IMG/VR virus record: IMGVR_UViG_2600254997_000025
Reading direction: 5' to 3' (one strand)
Origin: a virus
Taxonomy: Duplodnaviria > Heunggongvirae > Uroviricota > Caudoviricetes
Length of the DNA stretch: 10,888 nucleotides
Numbering within the stretch: position 1 is the first letter of the stretch; the number at the start of each line of letters is the position of its first letter. Both the position numbers and the translations under genes were made by a program. The notes beneath the pieces were generated by a model that saw only the letters and a program-made list of their open reading frames with translations, was not told where the DNA came from and made no database searches. This document shows positions 1,677 to 10,888 of the stretch, in pieces.

Positions 1677-1680
1677 TCAT

Positions 1681-1740
1681 GGGTGGTAGCCCGGACGGGG
1701 GTAGGAATACCGGCCTTCAAGGAAACCGGCCAGCCCGAAG
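1681..1740 (-). ncRNA. Candidate P4 CI-RNA-like immunity RNA (seqB-like segment)
   Basis: On the transcribed minus strand this segment carries CCUUGAAGG, UUCCUAC and CUACCACC. These are complementary to CUUCAAGG and GUAGGAA in the two flanking repeats, and to GUGGUAG (revcomp of 1655-1662) in the downstream repeat only. It is GC-rich with internal GGCCGG/CCGG self-complementarity. Confidence 0.35.
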
Positions 1741-1856
1741 GCTGCCCCGCCCGGACCACCATTATCTGACAGAGGCTACGGTTTAAAAACCACAGCCAGA
1801 AAAACAGGTGTGCCGAAGCAACGACGTAAAAAAAAGACGCATGGCGCGTCATATGT

Positions 1857-1885
1857 CGCCTTGAAGTAACTCGGGTTCCTACGCC
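1857..1885 (-). promoter_or_regulatory. seqA-like antisense target repeat in the leader of the leftward operon
   Basis: Second copy of the CCTTGAAGTAAC...GTTCCTACGC pair, about 20-50 nt downstream of the predicted promoter on the minus strand. Confidence 0.35.
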
Positions 1886-1913
1886 CGGCTGCCGATTTTG
1901 CGGCAGCGGAAAA

Positions 1914-1943
1914 ACTATATCCGCAAATGCCGGAAAAAGGCAA
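1914..1943 (-). promoter_or_regulatory. Candidate sigma70 promoter for the leftward immunity/replication operon (PLE-like)
   Basis: Minus strand reads TTGCCT (revcomp of 1938-1943), an 18-nt spacer, then TATAGT (revcomp of 1914-1919). A 7-bp hairpin (GCTGCCG/CGGCAGC, 1888-1907) sits at the predicted start site. Confidence 0.35.
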
Positions 1944-1956
1944 GCCAGTGTATGGG

Positions 1957-2989
1957 TCCACCACATATTGCAATTTTTATTCTCTTTTAAAATATATTCC
2001 ACGGGCGTCATTAGTGCGAGCGCCTTGTGGGGTCTTTTGCTGTTATACAGCACCAGATATTCCGCCAGCTTCTGGTTAAATAGCGCCAGATCTTCAAAGA
2101 GTAAAATCTCATTAAATTCAATAAACTGCTCTCTTAACGTCCGGTTAAACGTTCACAGATAGCGTTTCATTTTTTGGCGTGTAGGGATAGGTCCAGAGGT
2201 TGTTTGATAGCGGCTTTCCTGCAGCGTTTTTGTCGAAGTTTCCCAGGAACTCTTTTCCGTTATCTGTGATTATCTGGCTGATACCGACCGGGAACAACCG
2301 GGCTGCGCGGCTGAAGAAGTGATTGACGATATCACTGTTGAGTGACGGCACAGCCAGCGCCAGCGCGTAATTGCTGCATTCGTCGATCATGGTGATGACA
2401 TAGCGACGCAGTTCGCCCATTCTGAGCTCAATGGCGTCCATCCCAATGAGCTCACCTGTCTTTACCGGGCGGTAGTGCTTTGGCCTGCGGGGTTTGGCAG
2501 ACCGCTTTTGACAAGCAGTGCCTTCCCCCGCGATCCCAGACGCACAGGTATCATCCGCATTTTATCATGTGCGGCAGCGATCATTCTGCCGATGGTGGAA
2601 ACACTCGGACAGGCCAGATAGCGCTGTTCGCACCAGGGCTTCAGGCGAACAAAAATCTGCTCTTTACCGAGGTTCGGCAGCTCTGTCCTGAGGCGTCGAA
2701 TCTCTTTCAGCACATCGGGATGCCAGTGTTTTTTTCGTCGCACCAGAGGTGCCTTACTGTGCGGGATTAGCCCCTCAGGTCCTTCCTTGTTCAGTAACTG
2801 ACGCCACCAGTAAAGCGTGCGGCAGGACACGCCAAAGGCTTCAGAAGCTGCAGAAATACCGTGTTTATCCCAGAAGTGCAGAGCCTTCATTCTCATTGTT
2901 GCTATATCAGCCATCACTGAAAGCCTCAACGCATAATCGGCCGTTTGGTAGTACTTAGGATAGCCAACCATCAGATGCTGCATTTGCAT
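1957..2989 (-). pseudogene. Degraded DDE transposase (IS481-like), split over three frames
   Basis: Track ORF 2462-2989 has an N-terminal HTH-like region (GISAASEAFGVSCRTLYWWRQLL). ORF 2145-2441 has an rve-type core with ITDNGKEF. The start of ORF 1427-2053 has the transposase C-terminal signature [18 protein letters not shown]. The pieces are in different frames with gaps. Confidence 0.5.
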
Positions 2990-3035
2990 AGTGCAATCTC
3001 CCCTTACTTATCCGGAGGCAATTGCAATATCTCTG
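1957..3035 (-). mobile_element. IS remnant of about 1.08 kb inserted between vis and the immunity region; boundaries approximate
   Basis: ATATTGCAATT at 1966-1976 is an inverted copy of AATTGCAATAT at 3020-3030, a candidate terminal inverted-repeat core. Only 11 bp is shared, so the ends are not precisely defined. Confidence 0.4.
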
Positions 3036-3082
3036 TGAACTTACACAGCCAGAAAAAGGGAGTTTTTGCAGAGCGGGCATCA

Positions 3083-3733: not shown

Positions 3734-3810
3734 TAAAATATAAAAAACAAACAGTAAGCCGGTTTTTCCTGCGACCTTTTCCTGGCTTGCCGGTCTGAGG
3801 ATGAGTCTCC

Positions 3811-3828: not shown

Positions 3829-3900
3829 TCTGCAATGCGTCGTGTTGTTGTCCGGTGTACGTCACAATTTTCTCAACCTGAAGTGACGAGGAGCCGGAAA

Positions 3901-4635
3901 ATGTCTGACAACACCATCCCTGAATATCTGCAACCCGCACTGGCACAACTGGAAAAGGCCAGAGCCGCCCACCTTGAGAACGCCCGCCTGATGGATGAGA
4001 CCGTCACGGCCATTGAACGGGCAGAGCAGGAAAAAAATGCGCTGACGCAGGCCGACGGAAACGACGCTGACGACTGGCGCACGGCCTTTCGTGCAGCCAG
4101 TGGTGTCCTGAGCGACGAGCTGAAACAGCGCCACATTGAGCGCGTGGCACGCCGGGAGCTGGTACAGGAATATGACAATCTGGCCGTGGTGCTGAATTTT
4201 GAACGCGAACGCCTGAAAGGGGCGTGTGACAGCACGGCCACCGCCTACCGGAAGGCACATCATCACCTTCTGAGTCTGTATGCAGAGCATGAGCTGGAAC
4301 ACGCCCTGAGTGAAACCTGTGAGGCGCTTGTCCGGGCAATGCATCTGAGCATTCTGGTACAGGAAAATCCGCTCGCCAACACCACCGGGCATCAGGGCTA
4401 CGTCGCACCCGATAAAGTTGTCATGCAGCAGGTGAAATCATCTTTGGAACAGAAAATAAAACAGATGCAAATCAGCCTCACCGGCGAGCCGGTTCTCCGG
4501 CTGACCGGACTGTCAGCGGCAACGCTCCCGCACATGGATTATGAGGTGGCAGGCACACCGGCACAGCGCAAGGTGTGGCAGGACAAAATAGACCAGCAGG
4601 GAGCAGAGCTTAAGGCCAGAGGACTGCTGTCATGA
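3901..4635 (+). CDS. sid: Sid-like capsid size-determination (external scaffold) protein, 244 aa
   Basis: Internal ATG at 3901 of track ORF 3835-4635, with GAGGAG (3888-3893) at a 7-nt spacer. Gives 244 aa (MSDNTIPEYLQPALAQLEKARAAHLENARLMDE...). First gene of a sid-delta-psu triplet, and its stop overlaps the delta ATG (ATGA at 4632-4635). The earlier ATG at 3835 lacks an RBS. Confidence 0.75.
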   Translation: MSDNTIPEYLQPALAQLEKARAAHLENARLMDETVTAIERAEQEKNALTQADGNDADDWRTAFRAASGVLSDELKQRHIERVARRELVQEYDNLAVVLNFERERLKGACDSTATAYRKAHHHLLSLYAEHELEHALSETCEALVRAMHLSILVQENPLANTTGHQGYVAPDKVVMQQVKSSLEQKIKQMQISLTGEPVLRLTGLSAATLPHMDYEVAGTPAQRKVWQDKIDQQGAELKARGLLS

Positions 4636-5132
4636 TTTACTGCCCGTCGTGTGGACATGTTGCTCACACCCGTCGCGCACATTTCATGGACGATGGCACC
4701 AAGATAATGATTGCACAGTGCCGGAATATTTATTGCTCTGCGACATTTGAAGCGAGTGAAAGCTTTTTCTCTGACTGTAAAGATTCAGGAATGGAATACA
4801 TTTCAGGCAAACAGAGATACCGCGATTCACTGACTTCTGCCTCCGGCAGTATGAAACGCCCGAAAAGAATGCTTGTTACCGGATATTGTTGTCGGAGATG
4901 TAAAGGCCTTGCACTGTCAAGAACATCGCGGCGTCTGTCTCAGGAAGTCACTGAACGTTTTTATGTGTGCACGGATCCGGGCTGTGGTCTGGTGTTTAAA
5001 ACGCTTCAGACCATCAACCGCTTCATTGTCCGCCCGGTCACGCCGGACGAACTGGCAGAAAGCCTGCATGAAAAACAGGAACTGCCGCCAGTACGGTTAA
5101 AAACACAATCATATTCGCTGCGTCTGGAATGA
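4632..5132 (+). CDS. delta: Delta-like late-gene transactivator with tandem Ogr-type zinc fingers, 166 aa
   Basis: Two Cys4 units: CPSCGHVAH...CRNIYC and CCRRCKG...CTDPGC. This is the duplicated Ogr-like architecture of P4 Delta, and the 166-aa length matches as recalled. Confidence 0.8.
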   Translation: MIYCPSCGHVAHTRRAHFMDDGTKIMIAQCRNIYCSATFEASESFFSDCKDSGMEYISGKQRYRDSLTSASGSMKRPKRMLVTGYCCRRCKGLALSRTSRRLSQEVTERFYVCTDPGCGLVFKTLQTINRFIVRPVTPDELAESLHEKQELPPVRLKTQSYSLRLE

Positions 5133-5205: not shown

Positions 5206-5808
5206 ATGGAAAGCACAGCCTTACAGCAGGCCTTTGACACGTGTCAGAATAACAAAGCAGCATGGCTGCAACGCAAAAATGAGCTGGCTGCGGCCGAACA
5301 GGAATATCTGCGGCTTCTGTCAGGAGAAGGCAGAAACGTCAGTCGCCTTGACGAATTACGCAATATTATCGAAGTCAGAAAATGGCAGGTGAATCAGGCC
5401 GCCGGTCGTTATATTCGTTCGCATGAAGCCGTTCAGCACATCAGCATCCGCGACCGGCTGAATGATTTTATGCAGCAGCACGGCACAGCACTGGCGGCGG
5501 CACTGGCACCGGAGCTGATGGGCTACAGTGAGCTGACGGCCATTGCCCGAAACTGTGCCATACAGCGTGCCACAGATGCCCTGCGTGAAGCCCTCCTGTC
5601 CTGGCTTGCGAAGGGTGAAAAAATTAATTATTCCGCACAGGATAGCGACATTTTAACGACCATCGGATTCAGGCCTGACGCGGCTTCGGTGGATGACAGC
5701 CGTGAAAAATTCACCCCTGCGCAGAACATGATTTTTCGCGTAAAAGTGCGCAACTGGCATCACGTCAGTCTGTGTAAAATTCCCCGAAAATCCGCCTGTT
5801 TTTACTGA
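5206..5808 (+). CDS. psu: Psu-like polarity-suppression / capsid decoration protein, 200 aa
   Basis: Third gene of the late triplet, with AAAGAG upstream of the ATG. N-terminus MESTALQQAFDTCQNNKAAWLQRKNELAAAEQEY. The call rests on synteny plus recalled similarity. P4 Psu is recalled as about 190 aa, so the C-terminus may differ. Confidence 0.7.
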   Translation: MESTALQQAFDTCQNNKAAWLQRKNELAAAEQEYLRLLSGEGRNVSRLDELRNIIEVRKWQVNQAAGRYIRSHEAVQHISIRDRLNDFMQQHGTALAAALAPELMGYSELTAIARNCAIQRATDALREALLSWLAKGEKINYSAQDSDILTTIGFRPDAASVDDSREKFTPAQNMIFRVKVRNWHHVSLCKIPRKSACFY

Positions 5809-5810
5809 AA

Positions 5811-5841
5811 AAAGCCATGCATCGATAAGGTGCATGGCTTT
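5811..5841 (+). terminator. Hairpin immediately after psu stop, possible terminator of the late operon
   Basis: AGCCATGCA (5813-5821), 9-nt loop, TGCATGGCT (5831-5839): a perfect 9-bp stem flanked by an A run before and TT after. The T tract is short, so intrinsic termination is uncertain. Confidence 0.4.
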
Positions 5842-5916
5842 GCATGCGTTTCCCTGCCTCATTTTCTGCAGACCGCGCCATTCCCGGCGCGGTCTGAGCG
5901 TGTCAGTGCAACTGCA

Positions 5917-5944
5917 TTAAAACCGCCCCGCAAAGCGGGCGGGC
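5917..5944 (-). terminator. Candidate intrinsic terminator for the minus-strand cargo operon
   Basis: On the minus strand GCCCGCCCGC, loop TTT, GCGGGGCGG form a GC-rich stem (about 8 bp with one bulge) followed by TTTTAA. It lies about 35 nt downstream of the last cargo gene stop and is not followed by a T run on the plus strand. Confidence 0.4.
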
Positions 5945-5960
5945 GAGGCGGGGAGAGCAT
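5942..5960 (+). other. P2/P4-type cos site (cohesive-end 19-mer), uncleaved prophage form
   Basis: GGCGAGGCGGGGAGAGCAT matches 17 of 19 positions of the P2/P4 cohesive end GGCGAGGCGGGGAAAGCAC as recalled from memory. It sits directly after psu, as in P4. Confidence 0.6.
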
Positions 5961-5978
5961 TGCGCGCAGGTAAAAAAA

Positions 5979-6668
5979 TCATTTATTTTGTAATGCCGCA
6001 TCAAATCTGGTCTTGAGATCTTGGAATGGGATAACGAGTTTATCGATATAATCTTTATTATTATTTTGTAGAATTGCTTCAACAAAATCATTTAGAGGTG
6101 CATAGTTTTCTAATACTTTAGAATCGATAAAATCTTTATAGGACATACATTCAGCACCAATGCTAAGGCTTTCACCTATATACTTTTGTTCAAGAGATCT
6201 AATACAAGGAAAACCAATATCGTTCTCTCGTAGGGCTATAGAAATATTTTTGATTAATTCAGTTATTAACATTTCATCATTAGTTGGTGAAAATACAGAT
6301 GAATCTCTATTTTTCCTGAATTGATGTACCCAGCAAAAATATTGGCATAGATAGAATCTTGTACTATCAATATAATATTGATCCGACGATAGGTCATTGT
6401 GATCTTTAATATAACATAGCCTTCCTAAAAAACCATTTGCAGCACTAAGTAATGTTAACCCCCAACGTCCGATTTCAAGATCTCTTGCTTTTTTAAAATT
6501 ATAAGCACGTTCATCCTCTTTAATTCTCTGTTCACTTTCATATTTCAACTTATTTTTAAATGATTCTAACTCTCTTTTATCAATATGTTGTAAAAAAGCC
6601 TTACAAACAAATCCAATAATTGCAAATGAAATGCTTGATGACAAAATACCTTCCCAAAAGCTACTCAT
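5979..6668 (-). CDS. Small protein, 229 aa, with one predicted N-terminal transmembrane helix; third gene of the RT cassette (possible DRT1 partner / effector)
   Basis: ORF in track. Hydrophobic N-terminus FWEGILSSSISFAIIGFVCKAFL. The ATG (6668-6666) overlaps the TGA (6667-6665) of the nitrilase ORF, indicating translational coupling. AT-rich codon usage like the rest of the cassette. Confidence 0.65.
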   Translation of the reverse strand: MSSFWEGILSSSISFAIIGFVCKAFLQHIDKRELESFKNKLKYESEQRIKEDERAYNFKKARDLEIGRWGLTLLSAANGFLGRLCYIKDHNDLSSDQYYIDSTRFYLCQYFCWVHQFRKNRDSSVFSPTNDEMLITELIKNISIALRENDIGFPCIRSLEQKYIGESLSIGAECMSYKDFIDSKVLENYAPLNDFVEAILQNNNKDYIDKLVIPFQDLKTRFDAALQNK

Positions 6669-8512
6669 TTCTCACCTCGCTCTAATAGAGCATTATAGTC
6701 AAACCCTGGAGGATTGTGTTTAATAGTATCGGAGTTAATTCTGAATGAACGATATTGAGCCTCTCTCAATGCATATATATTTAAAGTAGTAGTTAGGATG
6801 CAATTGTTTTCCCCACCTTTTATATATATCTTATTTGAAATAGTGCTACTGGTCGGTTGTAGAACACAAGAACCGCCATAATGCGAAGTATTTGATTGAG
6901 CCACATAACAATGTAAATCCCGTGTCGCTGACTCAGTGATATGTTGATAATAATTTATATCTTGATTCCATACGCAAGCAAATAAAATATCCAACTGCGA
7001 ACGAAATAATGCTCTATGCTCGATATTAGCCAGTTCAAAACAGTTGTATGTAGAAAATGATACGTTTTTCCACTTAATCAAATGATACCGTTGTTTACTA
7101 GGTTTAGGAGAGGATATTTTTAACCTTAAAGAATTCAGCATCGTAATCTCACTAGGTGCGTAATGATTTTTCACTCGAAAAACTAACATACTGGATTTGT
7201 GTTTAAAGTTTGAAGTATAAGGCAGCATTTCAACCAAAATATTATATGCGCGTTCGTTAATAACCCAATGCTCTAATCCGAAAATCAAAGATATTTGTTT
7301 TCTCCTTGAATGTGCTGCCATAAAAGGTAACCACGACACAGGAATTGATAACTCAGGGAGTAGTAATATCTGCACATTTTCTTCAGTTGCCGAGTTGAGA
7401 ATACGATAAAGGTTTCTTTGCCGTTCATAACTTAAATTTGGAGACTGATCTTTTCTGCAAGCACTTTCAATATTACGACGTTCAACTCTCATATTTGCCA
7501 ACGCAACTTTTATTGTGTCATTACCACTTCTATCATCAATTCCTACCTTTATTTCAAGAGCTTTATTATCTTTTATCTTAGTAACAGAGCAATTTTTTAA
7601 GTGATGCTTATTTTCATGCGTAAACTTATGTAGTTTTCTTGTATGAAGAGCATCAATCAAATCGAAAAGCTGCTTTTCATCAGCATGAATATATCTAGGG
7701 GTTTTATTTAATTTATCATTATCAAGTGGAATACCATGCATCTTACTGTATAAATTCTCCTCAGTAAGATCTCCTTTATATTTAGTATAGTTAGCTAAAG
7801 GCCAAGACACTAGATTATGACGAATCAAATTACTGCTTCTAAATCTTTCAATTAGAACAGACATTCCATCGGACTGTTTAATTAAAGATTTCAAACCTTC
7901 CAAAGCTCTATTTTGTGGCTCTTTATCACCTAAAATGACATTTAAATCTAACAAAGCCAAATTCAAACAAAGAGAAATATCAATGTATTTCTGCATTCCA
8001 TTTTTAAGTTTTGGAGATATAACACTATCACCTTCCTTCCACTTCATTTTATTAATTGATTCTTTAATTTGTTTGTAAAAGGCGATTGAAAATCCATATT
8101 TTCTTGTAATTAATGTATACGATAGAACTTTCTCCCATAACCGACTGAACCTTAGAGAATTTTCACCTTTAAAAAACAGCGTTATTTGCTTTAAGGTATT
8201 CTCATTCGATGGAAGATTGCAAAGCCTATGAGCTAAGATATGTGATGATATATATTTTGATAATTCAGTTTCATTCTCTGCCAAACCTACAATACTTCTA
8301 AATTTATTTGCCGAACCATCAAGTAATATATCATAAGCAAATTTATCGAGATCGCTAGATATATGTTCTTCCGGTAAAAAACGAAATGCACTGCTTCTGT
8401 TCTCAATTTCTTGTTTGAAGACTTGTAAACCAGCCAAACTATGATCTTTATTGAAATAATGAAAAATCAATTTATCCTTTTGAATTGGTAATTCATGATA
8501 ACTCTCGGTCAA
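6665..8512 (-). CDS. Nitrilase (C-N hydrolase) domain protein; probably the C-terminal part of an RT-nitrilase fusion (annotated start is TTG)
   Basis: Nitrilase-superfamily catalytic triad context: Glu in ILLLPELS, Lys in LVFRVKNHYAPSE, Cys in TYNCFELANIEHR, plus HYGGSCVLQP. The frame is open 30 codons upstream of the TTG, back to the slippery heptamer in the RT gene. The first in-frame ATG is only at about codon 155. Confidence 0.8.
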   Translation of the reverse strand: MTESYHELPIQKDKLIFHYFNKDHSLAGLQVFKQEIENRSSAFRFLPEEHISSDLDKFAYDILLDGSANKFRSIVGLAENETELSKYISSHILAHRLCNLPSNENTLKQITLFFKGENSLRFSRLWEKVLSYTLITRKYGFSIAFYKQIKESINKMKWKEGDSVISPKLKNGMQKYIDISLCLNLALLDLNVILGDKEPQNRALEGLKSLIKQSDGMSVLIERFRSSNLIRHNLVSWPLANYTKYKGDLTEENLYSKMHGIPLDNDKLNKTPRYIHADEKQLFDLIDALHTRKLHKFTHENKHHLKNCSVTKIKDNKALEIKVGIDDRSGNDTIKVALANMRVERRNIESACRKDQSPNLSYERQRNLYRILNSATEENVQILLLPELSIPVSWLPFMAAHSRRKQISLIFGLEHWVINERAYNILVEMLPYTSNFKHKSSMLVFRVKNHYAPSEITMLNSLRLKISSPKPSKQRYHLIKWKNVSFSTYNCFELANIEHRALFRSQLDILFACVWNQDINYYQHITESATRDLHCYVAQSNTSHYGGSCVLQPTSSTISNKIYIKGGENNCILTTTLNIYALREAQYRSFRINSDTIKHNPPGFDYNALLERGEK

Positions 8513-8580
8513 CGTAAAGCCTTTCTCATCATTCGCTGCCTGTTTGATGAATCCATTAAGGGTTCGCTCTATGAATTTTA

Positions 8581-9540
8581 TTACTTCTTCACCTTTATCT
8601 TCTTTTTTAATGTCCGGGGATGAAAAACTAAAAGAATATCATCCACATAGCGACCGTAGTACGATGGATTAATTTTTGATTTAATATCTTTATCAAAACC
8701 CATTAAATACCAATTAGATAATATGGCAGAAGAAGTAAATCCAATTGGAATGCCTTTTGATGAAGGAGTTGAATGTGTCACACCAATATATGGAGATATT
8801 TTCTCTCTGTATTTTTGATGCATCAACCTCAATTTACTATTCAACAACATAGAAAGAGCTTTAATTTCTTCTAATTGTTCTTCGTCAATAATTCTATCAA
8901 TGGCATCAAAATCTATATCTATATTATAATAAAAACCCTTAAGATCCAGAGAAAGAATTGCAACATCATTTCGCTCTTTTTCTATAACTTCTATCGCTTT
9001 ATCGATACCACCATCTCGCCATTTATTATAATTATCAATGTATCTTTCAAAGATATTTTTTGAGGAGTTTTTTGGCGCATCGAAACTATTCTTAGAATAT
9101 TTTTTTATTACTTTTGATATTCTATTTCCATAAACCGAATCAGAAAACTTGTCATCTAGCATTGAACCAACAAAGATAGACCAGAGTGTTTCTATTAAAT
9201 ATATTTCAATAGGAGCAACGATCAAATAATTTACAGCACCTACTTTGTATTCATCTGATGTCTTATTATTACTTAAAAAAAGAGCTCCGCTCGTTTGCTC
9301 AATATCCAAATGGCTATCAATTATTTTTGGTAATAATTCAACATCAATTTTATTTAGCCACTCATTAAAGTTAATGTCATTATTATTTTCAAAAAAATCA
9401 ACCACTTTTTCTATTTTTTCGTCATAGAGAGAATCTTCAAATTGAGCGATTTCTTCCTTTAGGAAAAAATTTAAGTTTTCGTAGTAAGCATATGACTTAA
9501 GACAATTATATGCACTAACAACTATATCTTTTGTAATCAT
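8581..9540 (-). CDS. Reverse transcriptase (UG/Abi-type, defence-associated), 319 aa in this frame
   Basis: RT palm motifs: LSLDLKGFYYNIDIDF, GIPIGFTSSAILSNWYLMGFD (the GxPQG..S..L.N.YL-type motif) and YYGRYVDDILLVF (the YxDD catalytic motif). The ORF ends 6 codons after an A_AAA_AAG heptamer. Confidence 0.85.
   Translation of the reverse strand: MITKDIVVSAYNCLKSYAYYENLNFFLKEEIAQFEDSLYDEKIEKVVDFFENNNDINFNEWLNKIDVELLPKIIDSHLDIEQTSGALFLSNNKTSDEYKVGAVNYLIVAPIEIYLIETLWSIFVGSMLDDKFSDSVYGNRISKVIKKYSKNSFDAPKNSSKNIFERYIDNYNKWRDGGIDKAIEVIEKERNDVAILSLDLKGFYYNIDIDFDAIDRIIDEEQLEEIKALSMLLNSKLRLMHQKYREKISPYIGVTHSTPSSKGIPIGFTSSAILSNWYLMGFDKDIKSKINPSYYGRYVDDILLVFHPRTLKKKIKVKK
8602..8608 (-). other. A_AAA_AAG slippery heptamer at the RT/nitrilase frame junction
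   Basis: On the minus strand ACA TTA AAA AAG AAG reads A_AAA_AAG in the RT zero frame. A -1 shift here continues GAA GAT AAA GGT ... with no stop into the nitrilase ORF, exactly 30 codons to the TTG at 8512. Confidence 0.5.
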
Positions 9541-9631: not shown

Positions 9632-10888
9632 TTAATATTTTTTTGCAAAATCAAATGGTGTTACGAAAGTCTCACGATTTGCTGATAGGAAATCCGCCCA
9701 CCATTGCATCATCAATCGACGTTCGTCCAAATGCTCTGAAGTATGGATATAAGCTGCACGAACATTATTGCGCTCCGAGTGGCTTAACTGACGTTCTATC
9801 GCATCATCACTCCAAAGCCCCGACTCCCCCAAAGCACCACCCGCCATTGTTCTAAAACCATGCCCACATACTTCCGTTTGTGTGTCGTAGCCCATAGTCC
9901 TGAGCGCATTATTAACTGTGTTTTCGCTCATAACTTTATTGGGATCATGATCACCGGGAAACAGTCTAGGATTATCTCCACTAAGCTTCTTCAACTCATC
10001 CAGCAAAGCTAGAGCCTGAGTGCTCAATGGAACAATATGTTCCTCTTTCATCTTCATCCCACGATAGGAGTAACGCACACCTTCGATTTCTTCACGCCGC
10101 GCCGGTATCCGCCAGCAGGCGTTATCAAAATCAAACTCATCCCATCGGGCAAATCGCATCTCACTAGAGCGAACGAAGGTAAGTAGAGATAACTCGACTG
10201 CAATACGCGTCATTTTGCGGCCACGATATGCCGCAAGGCGTGCCAGAAACTCAGGGAAACGGCTGGAAGGTAGAGCTGGATAGTGTCGTGCTTTAGTTGT
10301 CGATAACGCACCAGCCATATCGCTAGCCGGGTTCGAGTCGATATAATCGTTCTGTACGGCATACCGCATAATGGCCGTGACGCGCTGTTGCAGGCGCTGA
10401 GCGACGTCGTGTTTACCACTGACATCAACTTTTTTAATCGGGGCTAATAGGTGGCTAGTTTTGAGCTGGCGAATGTCGGACGAACCGATATGAGGGAAGA
10501 TATAAAGCTCAAGATAGCGAAGAACACGCGATCGATGGTCTTCACTCCAGCGCTTGTTACTGGCATGCCATTCGCGAGCAATGGTTTCGAAGGTATATAC
10601 CCCCGAATTCTCGGCCTGAGCTTCTTTCTGTTCGGCTTTTGGGTCAATGCCCTGCACTAACAGCTTTTTAGCTTCGTCGCGCTTTGCTCTTGCCTGAGCA
10701 AGCGTCACTGTAGGCCAAACACCAAAAGCGAGGCGATCCTCTTTTTTGTCAGAGGGGCGTCGGTATTTCATGCGCCAGTATTTAGAACCCTTGGCCGAAA
10801 CCTCGAGATACAAACCGCCGCCATCGGCCATTTTGTATGTTTTGTCTTTTGGCTTTGCGGTCTCGACCTGTCTGGCGTTGAGCTTCAT
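9632..10888 (-). CDS. int: P4-type tyrosine integrase (site-specific recombinase), 418 aa
   Basis: ORF in track. N-terminus MKLNARQVETAKPKDKTYKMADGGGLYLEV is typical of P4-family integrase arm-binding domains. C-terminal catalytic region with R (TFVRSSE), HGFR and the Tyr context VRAAYIHTSEH. The ATG sits at the last 3 bases of the window. Confidence 0.9.
   Translation of the reverse strand: MKLNARQVETAKPKDKTYKMADGGGLYLEVSAKGSKYWRMKYRRPSDKKEDRLAFGVWPTVTLAQARAKRDEAKKLLVQGIDPKAEQKEAQAENSGVYTFETIAREWHASNKRWSEDHRSRVLRYLELYIFPHIGSSDIRQLKTSHLLAPIKKVDVSGKHDVAQRLQQRVTAIMRYAVQNDYIDSNPASDMAGALSTTKARHYPALPSSRFPEFLARLAAYRGRKMTRIAVELSLLTFVRSSEMRFARWDEFDFDNACWRIPARREEIEGVRYSYRGMKMKEEHIVPLSTQALALLDELKKLSGDNPRLFPGDHDPNKVMSENTVNNALRTMGYDTQTEVCGHGFRTMAGGALGESGLWSDDAIERQLSHSERNNVRAAYIHTSEHLDERRLMMQWWADFLSANRETFVTPFDFAKKY

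What the first reader, a model, noticed from the sequence alone, without database searches (positions are those of the whole stretch)
5809..5978. P2/P4-type cos 19-mer and structured junction separate psu from the cargo
GGCGAGGCGGGGAGAGCAT (5942-5960) matches the P2/P4 cohesive-end sequence at 17 of 19 positions as recalled. It is flanked by GC-rich imperfect hairpins (5923-5943) and preceded by the psu terminator hairpin. This puts the cargo directly at the packaged-genome end, so the cassette would travel in P2-packaged satellite particles. Two substitutions relative to the canonical cos raise the question of whether the element is still packageable.
Basis: partly seen in the sequence, partly recalled or inferred. 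Interest (0 to 1): 0.5.

Follow-up and report, generated by a model that had tools for sequence, protein, structure and literature searches.

The report
P4 satellite cos packaging site
This is the ordinary DNA-packaging (cos) site of a P4-type phage satellite, sitting where it always sits, next to the satellite's swappable anti-phage gene cassette; its two base changes are natural variants and give no sign of decay.

Summary
GGCGAGGCGGGGAGAGCAT (5942-5960) lies exactly where phage P4's cohesive end begins: the P4 record ends at window 5941 and its base 1 aligns to 5942. The psu-side flank is 98% identical to P4. The 55-bp P2/P4 cos core (5913-5967) matches P4 at 52/55, P2 at 51/55 and 186 at 48/55.

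It runs from about 5812 to 5967 and includes three TGCAT motifs (5818-5845). These sit at the same distance from the nick in 82 P2-like phages and 92 satellites. The "psu terminator hairpin" therefore lies inside cos.

The two substitutions fall at naturally polymorphic positions. T19 is the state in phage 186. G14 is common in satellites and also occurs in P2-like prophages.

In P4-proper satellites this allele was seen only with the RT(UG5)-nitrilase plus membrane-protein cargo. It looks like a recombination footprint that arrived with the cargo.

Cos adjacent to a defence hotspot, and this very cargo type, were published by Rousset et al. 2022, so the finding is already known. Cos looks intact. 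This copy, however, carries an IS481-family insertion, is about 13.7 kb, and has three homopolymer frameshifts.

The parts
5206..5777 (+). psu (polarity suppression / capsid decoration). The native stop is at 5775-5777. In this copy a 1-base deletion at 5731 shifts the frame, so the ORF runs on to 5808.
   Evidence: Pfam Psu, E 4e-86. Alignment to P4 and to L002 shows T6>T5 at 5731.
5812..5850 (+). Distal cos block with three TGCAT motifs (5818-5822, 5831-5835, 5841-5845). It overlaps hairpin 5811-5841, which may also terminate psu transcription. It is the probable terminase-binding part of cos (inferred).
   Evidence: TGCAT counts peak at -130..-100 in 82 phages and 92 satellites and are near zero elsewhere. 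Conservation profile. Fold z -4.5. The full stem is conserved only in satellites.
5869..5896 (+). Perfect 11-bp inverted repeat, CAGACCGCGCC-attccc-GGCGCGGTCTG. Function unknown. Only a short GCGCC..GGCGC core is shared across the family.
   Evidence: Fold -15.3 kcal/mol, z -5.1. Family-wide mean z is only about -0.75. Column pairing is 0.40 in phages and 0.62 in satellites.
5913..5967 (+). 55-bp P2/P4-family cos core: TGCATTAAAACCGCCCCGCAAAGCGGGCG | 19-mer | TGCGCGC.
   Evidence: 52/55 identical to P4, 51/55 to P2, 48/55 to 186. The 55-bp core concept of Ziermann & Calendar 1990 is taken as cited in PMC5694545 and PMC9594776.
5923..5942 (-). Imperfect GC hairpin followed on the - strand by TTTTAATGCA. 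It is terminator-like for the leftward cargo transcript (inferred).
   Evidence: Terminator scan hit on the - strand. The fold alone is not significant (z -1.8).
5942..5960 (+). 19-nt cohesive-end sequence (cosN). By homology the top-strand nick is at 5941|5942 and the bottom-strand nick at 5960|5961. Allele: A5-G14-T19.
   Evidence: P4 record end/start alignment. Annotated cosL/cosR of P2 and cos of 186.
5961..5967 (+). TGCGCGC, the last conserved bases of cos. The variable hotspot starts at 5968.
   Evidence: Forty contigs with the P4-proper left flank have at least 28 unrelated sequences starting immediately after TGCGCGC. Satellite conservation drops to background after 5967.
5979..6668 (-). 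Cargo gene 1: small membrane protein associated with the RT (PADLOC RTasTM).
   Evidence: PADLOC PDLC03013, E 5e-164, full length.
6665..9540 (-). Cargo gene 2: UG5-large reverse transcriptase with a C-terminal nitrilase. It is split here into 8581-9540 and 6665-8512 by a 1-base deletion in an A run at 8622.
   Evidence: PADLOC RT_UG5-nitrilase: profile positions 1-316 and 344-958 on the two pieces. It is a single 958-aa CDS in NZ_CP062910.
9632..10888 (-). P4-type tyrosine integrase, the far boundary of the hotspot.
   Evidence: 84% DNA identity to P4 int. Annotated as an integrase in L002.

Best explanation
Window 5812-5967 is the cos site of an integrated P4-like satellite.

Mechanism, from established P2/P4 biology. 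When a P2-family helper phage provides terminase (gpM/gpP) and capsids, the excised circular satellite is nicked on the top strand at 5941|5942 and on the bottom strand at 5960|5961. This gives 19-nt 5' cohesive ends, and the linear genome is packaged into Sid-remodelled small capsids.

Nearly all conserved recognition sequence lies on the psu side: the TGCAT repeats, a spacer, and then the GC-rich core. Only 7 bp are conserved beyond the cohesive end. Anything can therefore be placed from 5968 onward, which is why the defence hotspot starts there.

Shown here: homology, register, conservation and allele distribution.

Inferred: that terminase binds the TGCAT block, that the nicks fall at the homologous bonds, and that this allele is cut efficiently.

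The substitutions G14 and T19, together with T at +20, are the states of a widespread Enterobacterales satellite allele, GGCGTGGCGGGGAGAGCAT|T. Position 5 keeps the P4/P2 state (A). The 19-mer is therefore most simply a chimera made by a crossover inside cos when the RT-nitrilase cargo was acquired.
For: Position and register:
- The P4 end/start aligns exactly at 5941|5942, and the left flank is 98% identical.
- Core identity is 52/55 to P4, 51/55 to P2 and 48/55 to 186. The window core is thus closer to P2 and P4 than 186's core is.

Extended conservation:
- TGCAT motifs sit at fixed distances in 82 phages and 92 satellites.

Polymorphism:
- In a capped sample of 120 IMG/VR contigs, position 5 is A/T/G, position 14 is A (63), T (49) or G (8), and position 19 is C/T.
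- G14 occurs next to portal and terminase genes in at least 12 P2-like prophages.
- In representative genomes of roughly 40 Enterobacterales species G14 occurs 52 times: 43 psu-adjacent and none portal-adjacent.
- The exact window 19-mer also occurs in divergent satellites with about 36% identical Psu, one of which (L011) carries a different HerA-type cargo.

Linkage to the cargo:
- An identical 71-mer is present in 30 complete E. coli genomes. All 16 whose cargo I examined carry the same RT cargo.
- Of 40 contigs with the P4-proper left flank, 36 have the canonical allele with at least 28 different cargos. The window allele occurs only with this cargo.
- A T5-G14-T19 satellite in Silvania carries a homologous RT (77% aa) plus TM (62% aa).

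Published context: the hotspot is adjacent to cos, and an RT-nitrilase+1TM system was validated as a defence (PMC9122126).
Against: - There is no experimental evidence that a P2-family terminase cuts the G14 allele.
- No isolated, propagated phage in the phage collection has the G14-type cos region. The G14 phages are prophage predictions.
- My scans fixed the other 16 positions of the 19-mer, so they say nothing about tolerance at those positions.
- This copy has an IS481-family insertion next to the immunity RNAs and is about 13.7 kb, against 11.6 kb for P4. It also carries frameshifts in psu and the RT. The element may not be mobilisable even with a good cos.
- The chimera reading rests on allele states, not on a reconstructed donor.
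Confidence: 0.8

Rival explanations
1. It is a decaying cos in a domesticated, no longer mobile satellite remnant. On this reading the substitutions are drift in a site no longer under selection, and the cassette now spreads only vertically.
For: - This copy has an IS481-family insertion at 1949-3046, just upstream of the isrK/c4-a1b1/C4 immunity RNAs.
- psu and the RT are frameshifted.
- Its length of about 13.7 kb exceeds the roughly 12 kb small-capsid capacity quoted by Rousset et al..
- A second lineage with the same cos and cargo is an IS1-truncated remnant.
Against: - The same cos allele is present, base for base, in IS-free copies in at least 12 E. coli genomes from pig, human, mouse and fly. 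These copies carry uninterrupted psu, sid, delta, alpha and int genes, although an ash-family pseudogene is annotated.
- G14/T19 is the majority state in many satellites across many genera and also occurs in P2-like prophages. It is therefore a maintained allele, not drift.
- The remaining 52 of 55 core positions and the distal TGCAT block are intact.
- All three indels are single-base losses in homopolymers, which is typical of sequencing error.
Confidence: 0.12
2. G14 is a satellite-adapted cos allele. It would change how helper terminase handles satellite DNA, either biasing packaging toward the satellite or restricting it to helpers with a matching terminase.
For: - In an allele-unbiased sample, G14 was present in 8 of 14 satellites and 0 of 77 phages (Fisher p = 4e-8, not corrected for relatedness).
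- In species-representative genomes, none of the 52 G14 sites is next to a portal gene.
Against: - G14 does occur in at least 12 P2-like prophages.
- P4-proper satellites mostly carry the canonical A14 allele (36 of 40).
- The enrichment can be explained by shared ancestry, together with rare cos exchange between phages and satellites.
- There are no functional data.
Confidence: 0.06
3. It is a chance GC-rich match with no relation to cos.
For: None beyond the GC richness of the 19-mer. The same 19-mer does occur once in an unrelated context in IMG/VR, in the two homologous contigs L008 and L009.
Against: 0.01 matches are expected in the window. The register with P4's ends is exact and 156/161 flanking positions are identical.
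Confidence: 0.01

Closest known systems
cos of satellite phage P4 (NC_001609 / X51522 ends)
   Same: Same position, between psu and the non-essential region leading to int. Same register of the cohesive end. 52/55 of the core and 156/161 of -135..+26 are identical. The TGCAT block and both hairpins are shared.
   Different: A14G and C19T in the overhang, and C>T at +20. In P4 the 5869-5896 stem has one mismatch; here it is perfect. The cargo is RT-UG5-nitrilase+TM instead of gop/beta/cII.
cos of helper phages P2 and 186
   Same: The 55-bp core, the 19-nt 5' cohesive end, TGCAT at -29, and the TGCAT cluster at about -130..-100. T19 and +20 T equal 186. A5 and +20 T equal P2.
   Different: In the phages the right flank leads into the portal gene Q/W and is moderately conserved. 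Here it is unrelated cargo. G14 is absent from P2, 186 and P4.
P4-like defence hotspot between psu and int, adjacent to cos (Rousset et al. 2022, PMC9122126; Moura de Sousa & Rocha 2021, PMC8628076)
   Same: Same architecture. The same cargo class ('RT from unknown group 5 with C-terminal nitrilase' plus a transmembrane protein) was found and validated there.
   Different: Nothing of substance. This copy additionally has an IS481-family insertion and frameshifts.
Reverse-transcriptase cargo next to cos: the P2-dependent retron-bearing P4-like element, and retrons Ec67/Ec86 in a 186-related prophage (known to me only as citations in PMC8628076, PMC9122126 and PMC5694545)
   Same: A reverse-transcriptase system inserted beside cos in a P2/P4-family element. 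The P4-like one is reported to need P2 for transfer.
   Different: Those are retrons. This is a UG5/DRT-class RT-nitrilase with a membrane partner.
Lambda cos (cosN plus the cosB terminase-binding repeats)
   Same: It works alike: a nicking site, with repeated short motifs on one side that are likely bound by the small terminase subunit.
   Different: There is no sequence relationship. The overhang is 19 nt rather than 12 nt. The repeat block lies on the opposite (right-end) side. From my own knowledge, P2 uses circular monomers as substrate.

Membership tests
P2/P4-family cos site | 19-nt cohesive-end sequence GGCGnGGCGGGGAnAGCAy at the position homologous to the genome ends | tested here: met
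   5942-5960. P4 base 1 aligns to 5942. The allele lies within natural variation.
P2/P4-family cos site | 55-bp conserved core (Ziermann & Calendar 1990, as cited in PMC5694545 and PMC9594776) | tested here: met
   5913-5967: 52/55 to P4, 51/55 to P2, 48/55 to 186.
P2/P4-family cos site | Flanking similarity beyond the core on the right-end side (the TGCAT cluster about 100-130 bp from the nick) | tested here: met
   TGCAT at -124, -111, -101 and -29. The same peaks appear in 82 phages and 92 satellites.
P2/P4-family cos site | Cleavage by P2-family terminase to give 19-nt 5' overhangs, and helper-dependent packaging | not testable with these tools
   This needs transduction assays or sequencing of virion DNA ends.
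P4-like satellite | Core gene set and order: ...eps, immunity RNA, vis, sid, delta, psu, cos, cargo, int | tested here: met
   Collinear with P4 at 84-98% identity. Pfam hits to Psu, Derepression and Ash. Rfam hits to C4, isrK and c4-a1b1. The primase gene alpha lies outside the window but is present in the near-identical L002.
P4-like defence hotspot (Rousset 2022) | Variable, low-GC cassette between cos and int that encodes a defence system | tested here: met
   GC about 0.30 against about 0.55. PADLOC RT_UG5-nitrilase plus RTasTM. At least 28 alternative right flanks follow the same left flank.
UG5-large / class 1 DRT system (RT-nitrilase + TM) | Single intact RT-nitrilase polypeptide together with the small membrane protein | tested here: inconclusive
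   The TM gene is intact. The RT is split by a 1-base deletion in an A run at 8622. This could be a real pseudogene or a sequencing error. The gene is intact (958 aa) in NZ_CP062910.

The most novel reading that the evidence does not exclude
The cohesive-end sequence itself is a recombination joint. Positions 1-13 carry the P4-proper state and positions 14 to +20 carry the state of a different, widespread satellite lineage. That second part co-inherits with the RT-nitrilase cargo. This would be direct sequence evidence for Rousset et al.'s speculation that cargo swapping proceeds through the cos ends, by annealing of heterologous cohesive ends or by a crossover within the 55-bp core. In addition, G14 is a largely satellite-borne cos allele, which hints that satellite and helper cos sites evolve as separate pools and might differ functionally.
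Probability: 0.2. Interest if true: 0.4.

Novelty: already known. Interest (0 to 1): 0.15.

Why it matters
It matters little by itself. It confirms that this window is a standard P4-like satellite whose defence cassette sits at the cos-proximal hotspot, an arrangement published in 2022 together with this cargo type.

It has two modest uses:
1. It gives a practical rule for annotators: cos spans about 155 bp on the psu side, and the cargo begins 7 bp after the cohesive end.
2. It gives a lead: alleles inside the 19-mer segregate with the cargo. A systematic survey could use this to locate the crossover points of defence-cassette exchange.

Tried and rejected
1. 'G14 is satellite-exclusive.' An unbiased sample suggested this. 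A G14-fixed scan rejected it by finding at least 12 P2-like prophages with G14 next to Q and P.

2. 'The hairpins are conserved structures.' Column-wise pairing and per-sequence folding across about 190 relatives show no family-wide structural signal for the 5869-5896 stem or the 5923-5942 stem. The 5811-5841 stem is invariant in satellites, so it gives no covariation, and it is not kept in phages.

3. Looked for an isolated phage with a G14 cos to prove function. There was none in the phage collection by megablast or blastn.

4. Tried to read Lindqvist et al. 1993 and searched for papers describing the Ziermann & Calendar 1990 deletion mapping of the minimal cos. Lindqvist 1993 is not held, and only secondary citations of the 55-bp core were found. 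I therefore cannot say whether the TGCAT block has already been described.

5. Checked whether L316, an IMG/VR contig of exactly 10888 bases, is the window. It is not.

Full report
**What is there.** The window is an integrated P4-like satellite. It is collinear with phage P4 (NC_001609, L001):
- window 1-1751 matches P4 6742-8492 at 97%;
- window 3047-5941 matches P4 8728-11624 at 98%;
- window 9691-10888 matches P4 int at 84%.

The gene order is orf106, orf151, eps, the immunity RNA region, vis, sid (3835-4635), delta (4632-5132) and psu (5206-). After psu comes the finding, then about 3.7 kb of low-GC DNA on the minus strand, then int (9632-10888).

**Check of the observation.** GGCGAGGCGGGGAGAGCAT is at 5942-5960. 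It is the only site in the window within 3 mismatches of the P2/P4 19-mer, against 0.01 expected by chance. The linear P4 record ends at window 5941 and its first base aligns to 5942, so the 19-mer is in exactly the register of P4's cohesive end.

The four junctions read as follows:
- P2: ...cgtgaagcgggcg|GGCGAGGCGGGGAAAGCAC|tgcgcgc
- 186: ...ataaagtgggca|GGCGTGGCGGGGAAAGCAT|tgcgcgc
- P4: ...gcaaagcgggcg|GGCGAGGCGGGGAAAGCAC|cgcgcgc
- window: ...gcaaagcgggcg|GGCGAGGCGGGGAGAGCAT|tgcgcgc

C19T is therefore the 186 state. The T at +20 is the P2 and 186 state. Only A14G is unlike all three reference phages.

The 55-bp core attributed to Ziermann & Calendar 1990 (as cited in PMC5694545 and PMC9594776) corresponds to 5913-5967. 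It is 52/55 identical to P4, 51/55 to P2 and 48/55 to 186.

**Extent of cos.** I oriented the IMG/VR contigs carrying the degenerate cos pattern on the nick (223 had enough flank; 206 were unique). I classified them by a psu gene to the left (satellite) or a portal gene Q to the right (phage). TGCAT motifs pile up at -130..-100 (about three copies) and at -29 in both the 82 phages and the 92 satellites, and are essentially absent elsewhere.

In the window these motifs are at 5818-5822, 5831-5835, 5841-5845 and 5913-5917. A MAFFT profile shows conservation from about 5812 to 5967 in both groups. To the right of 5967 the satellites fall to background.

In phages only the inner TGCA/TGCA part pairs. 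In satellites the whole stem is invariant. It may serve both as a terminator and as part of cos. That it binds terminase is my inference.

A perfect 11-bp stem at 5869-5896 (z -5.1) is specific to the P4-proper lineage. Relatives share only a short GCGCC..GGCGC repeat, and there is no family-wide structural signal.

The GC hairpin at 5923-5942 is not better than shuffles (z -1.8). On the minus strand it is followed by TTTTAATGCA and is the only terminator-like hit in the region, so it could stop the leftward cargo transcript. That too is an inference.

**Are the substitutions a problem?**
- In a capped sample of 120 IMG/VR contigs matching GGCGNGGCGGGGANAGCANNGCGCGC, position 5 is A/T/G, position 14 is A (63), T (49) or G (8), and position 19 is C or T. 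Both substitutions thus sit at naturally polymorphic positions.
G14 therefore exists in P2-like prophages.
- In one genome per species, G14 occurs 52 times across roughly 40 Enterobacterales species (Enterobacter, Citrobacter, Kluyvera, Serratia, Pectobacterium, Edwardsiella and others). Of these, 43 are psu-adjacent and none is portal-adjacent.
- The exact window 19-mer also occurs in divergent satellites whose Psu is only about 36% identical. One of them, L011, carries a HerA-type cargo.

I first thought G14 might be satellite-exclusive: 8 of 14 satellites against 0 of 77 phages in the allele-unbiased sample. One search refuted exclusivity, but the enrichment remains.

Two caveats apply. No isolated phage in the phage collection has this cos type. 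My patterns also fixed the other positions, so they say nothing about tolerance there.

**Linkage to the cargo.**
- The cargo is a PADLOC RT_UG5-nitrilase (958 aa when intact) plus the small membrane protein RTasTM.
- The 71-mer 5900-5970 is identical in 30 of the 836 complete E. coli genomes that match it. All 16 whose cargo I examined carry this cargo.
- Of 40 IMG/VR contigs with the exact P4-proper left flank, 36 have the canonical A5-A14-C19 allele, joined to at least 28 unrelated right flanks that begin immediately after TGCGCGC. The window allele appears only with this cargo.
- A Silvania satellite with T5-G14-T19 carries a homologous RT (77% aa) and TM (62% aa) in the same place and orientation.

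The simplest reading is that G14, T19 and +20 T arrived with the cargo from the G14/T19 satellite lineage, through a crossover between positions 5 and 14 of the cohesive-end sequence. This fits the speculation of Rousset et al. that cos ends seed cassette exchange. It is an inference from allele states only.

**State of this copy.** I compared the window with the closest complete-genome copy, NZ_CP062910 (L002), which is 99.8% identical.
- The window has a 1098-bp IS481-family insertion at 1949-3046, flanked by GCCAG. It lies about 30 bp upstream of the c4-a1b1/isrK/C4 immunity RNA cluster found by Rfam at 1679-1920.
- The window has three single-base deletions, all in homopolymer runs, at 3741, 5731 and 8622. 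The second changes the last residues of Psu. The third splits the RT. This pattern is typical of sequencing error but could be real.
- The att cores in L002 are about 12.6 kb apart. This copy is therefore about 13.7 kb, against 11.6 kb for P4 and the roughly 12 kb small-capsid capacity quoted in PMC9122126.

Cos looks intact, but mobility of this particular copy is doubtful for these other reasons.

**Comparison with what is known.** The hotspot between psu and int, directly adjacent to cos, was described for 5,251 E. coli loci. 'RT-nitrilase + 1TM' was one of the validated systems (PMC9122126). Later surveys repeat the arrangement (PMC8628076, PMC13586616). A UG5-large RT-nitrilase has also been shown to defend Sinorhizobium (PMC13436386). 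The finding is therefore a correct rediscovery of a known arrangement.

**Verdict.** The only potentially new points are the chimeric 19-mer and the satellite enrichment of G14. Neither is established here.

Noticed in passing
window 1949-3046: A 1098-bp IS481-family insertion sequence (HTH_32 + rve, transposase split into 175-aa and 98-aa ORFs), flanked by GCCAG. It is absent from the otherwise 99.3-99.8% identical E. coli copies. It sits between vis and the immunity RNA cluster, where P4's early promoter should be, so it may disable regulation of the satellite.
   Followed up: partly
window 3741, 5731, 8622: The only three indels relative to NZ_CP062910 are single-base deletions in A or T homopolymers. 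One alters the psu C-terminus (the ORF runs to 5808 instead of 5777) and one splits the RT-nitrilase gene. The pattern suggests long-read or homopolymer sequencing error rather than biology.
   Followed up: partly
window 1679-1920 (- strand): Rfam finds the P4 immunity system intact: C4 antisense RNA (1679-1766), isrK (1830-1907) and the c4-a1b1 targets (1868-1920).
   Followed up: no
IMG/VR and genome loci L015-L296 (cos position 14): G at position 14 of the cohesive end is strongly enriched in satellites: 8 of 14 satellites against 0 of 77 phages in an unbiased sample, and 0 of 52 portal-adjacent in species-representative genomes. It is not exclusive to satellites, since at least 12 P2-like prophages have it. 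T14 was seen next to portal genes or in unclassified contexts, never next to psu.
   Followed up: partly
window 5935-5941 and 5961-5967: The heptamers just outside the two inferred nick positions are near-symmetric: GCGGGCG| on the left and, as the reverse complement of the right side, GCGCGCA|. In some relatives both are GCGCGCA (for example L020). This is consistent with a two-fold symmetric nicking complex, as at lambda cosN.
   Followed up: no
L008 1695-1713 and L009 1409-1427: The exact 19-mer occurs in two homologous IMG/VR contigs with completely unrelated flanks. This is probably a chance match in a very large collection.
   Followed up: no
L012-L014 (E. coli FORC_031, E8, FDAARGOS_943): A second lineage carries the same psu-cos-RT cargo-int segment as a remnant. 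IS1 truncates the satellite just left of psu, and in some strains the RT is frameshifted or hit by IS1. The cassette can evidently persist after the satellite is destroyed.
   Followed up: partly
L282 4219-7815 (Silvania hatchlandensis): A divergent satellite (Psu 53% identical) carries a homologous UG5 RT-nitrilase (77% aa) and TM protein (62% aa) at the same cos-proximal position and in the same orientation.
   Followed up: no
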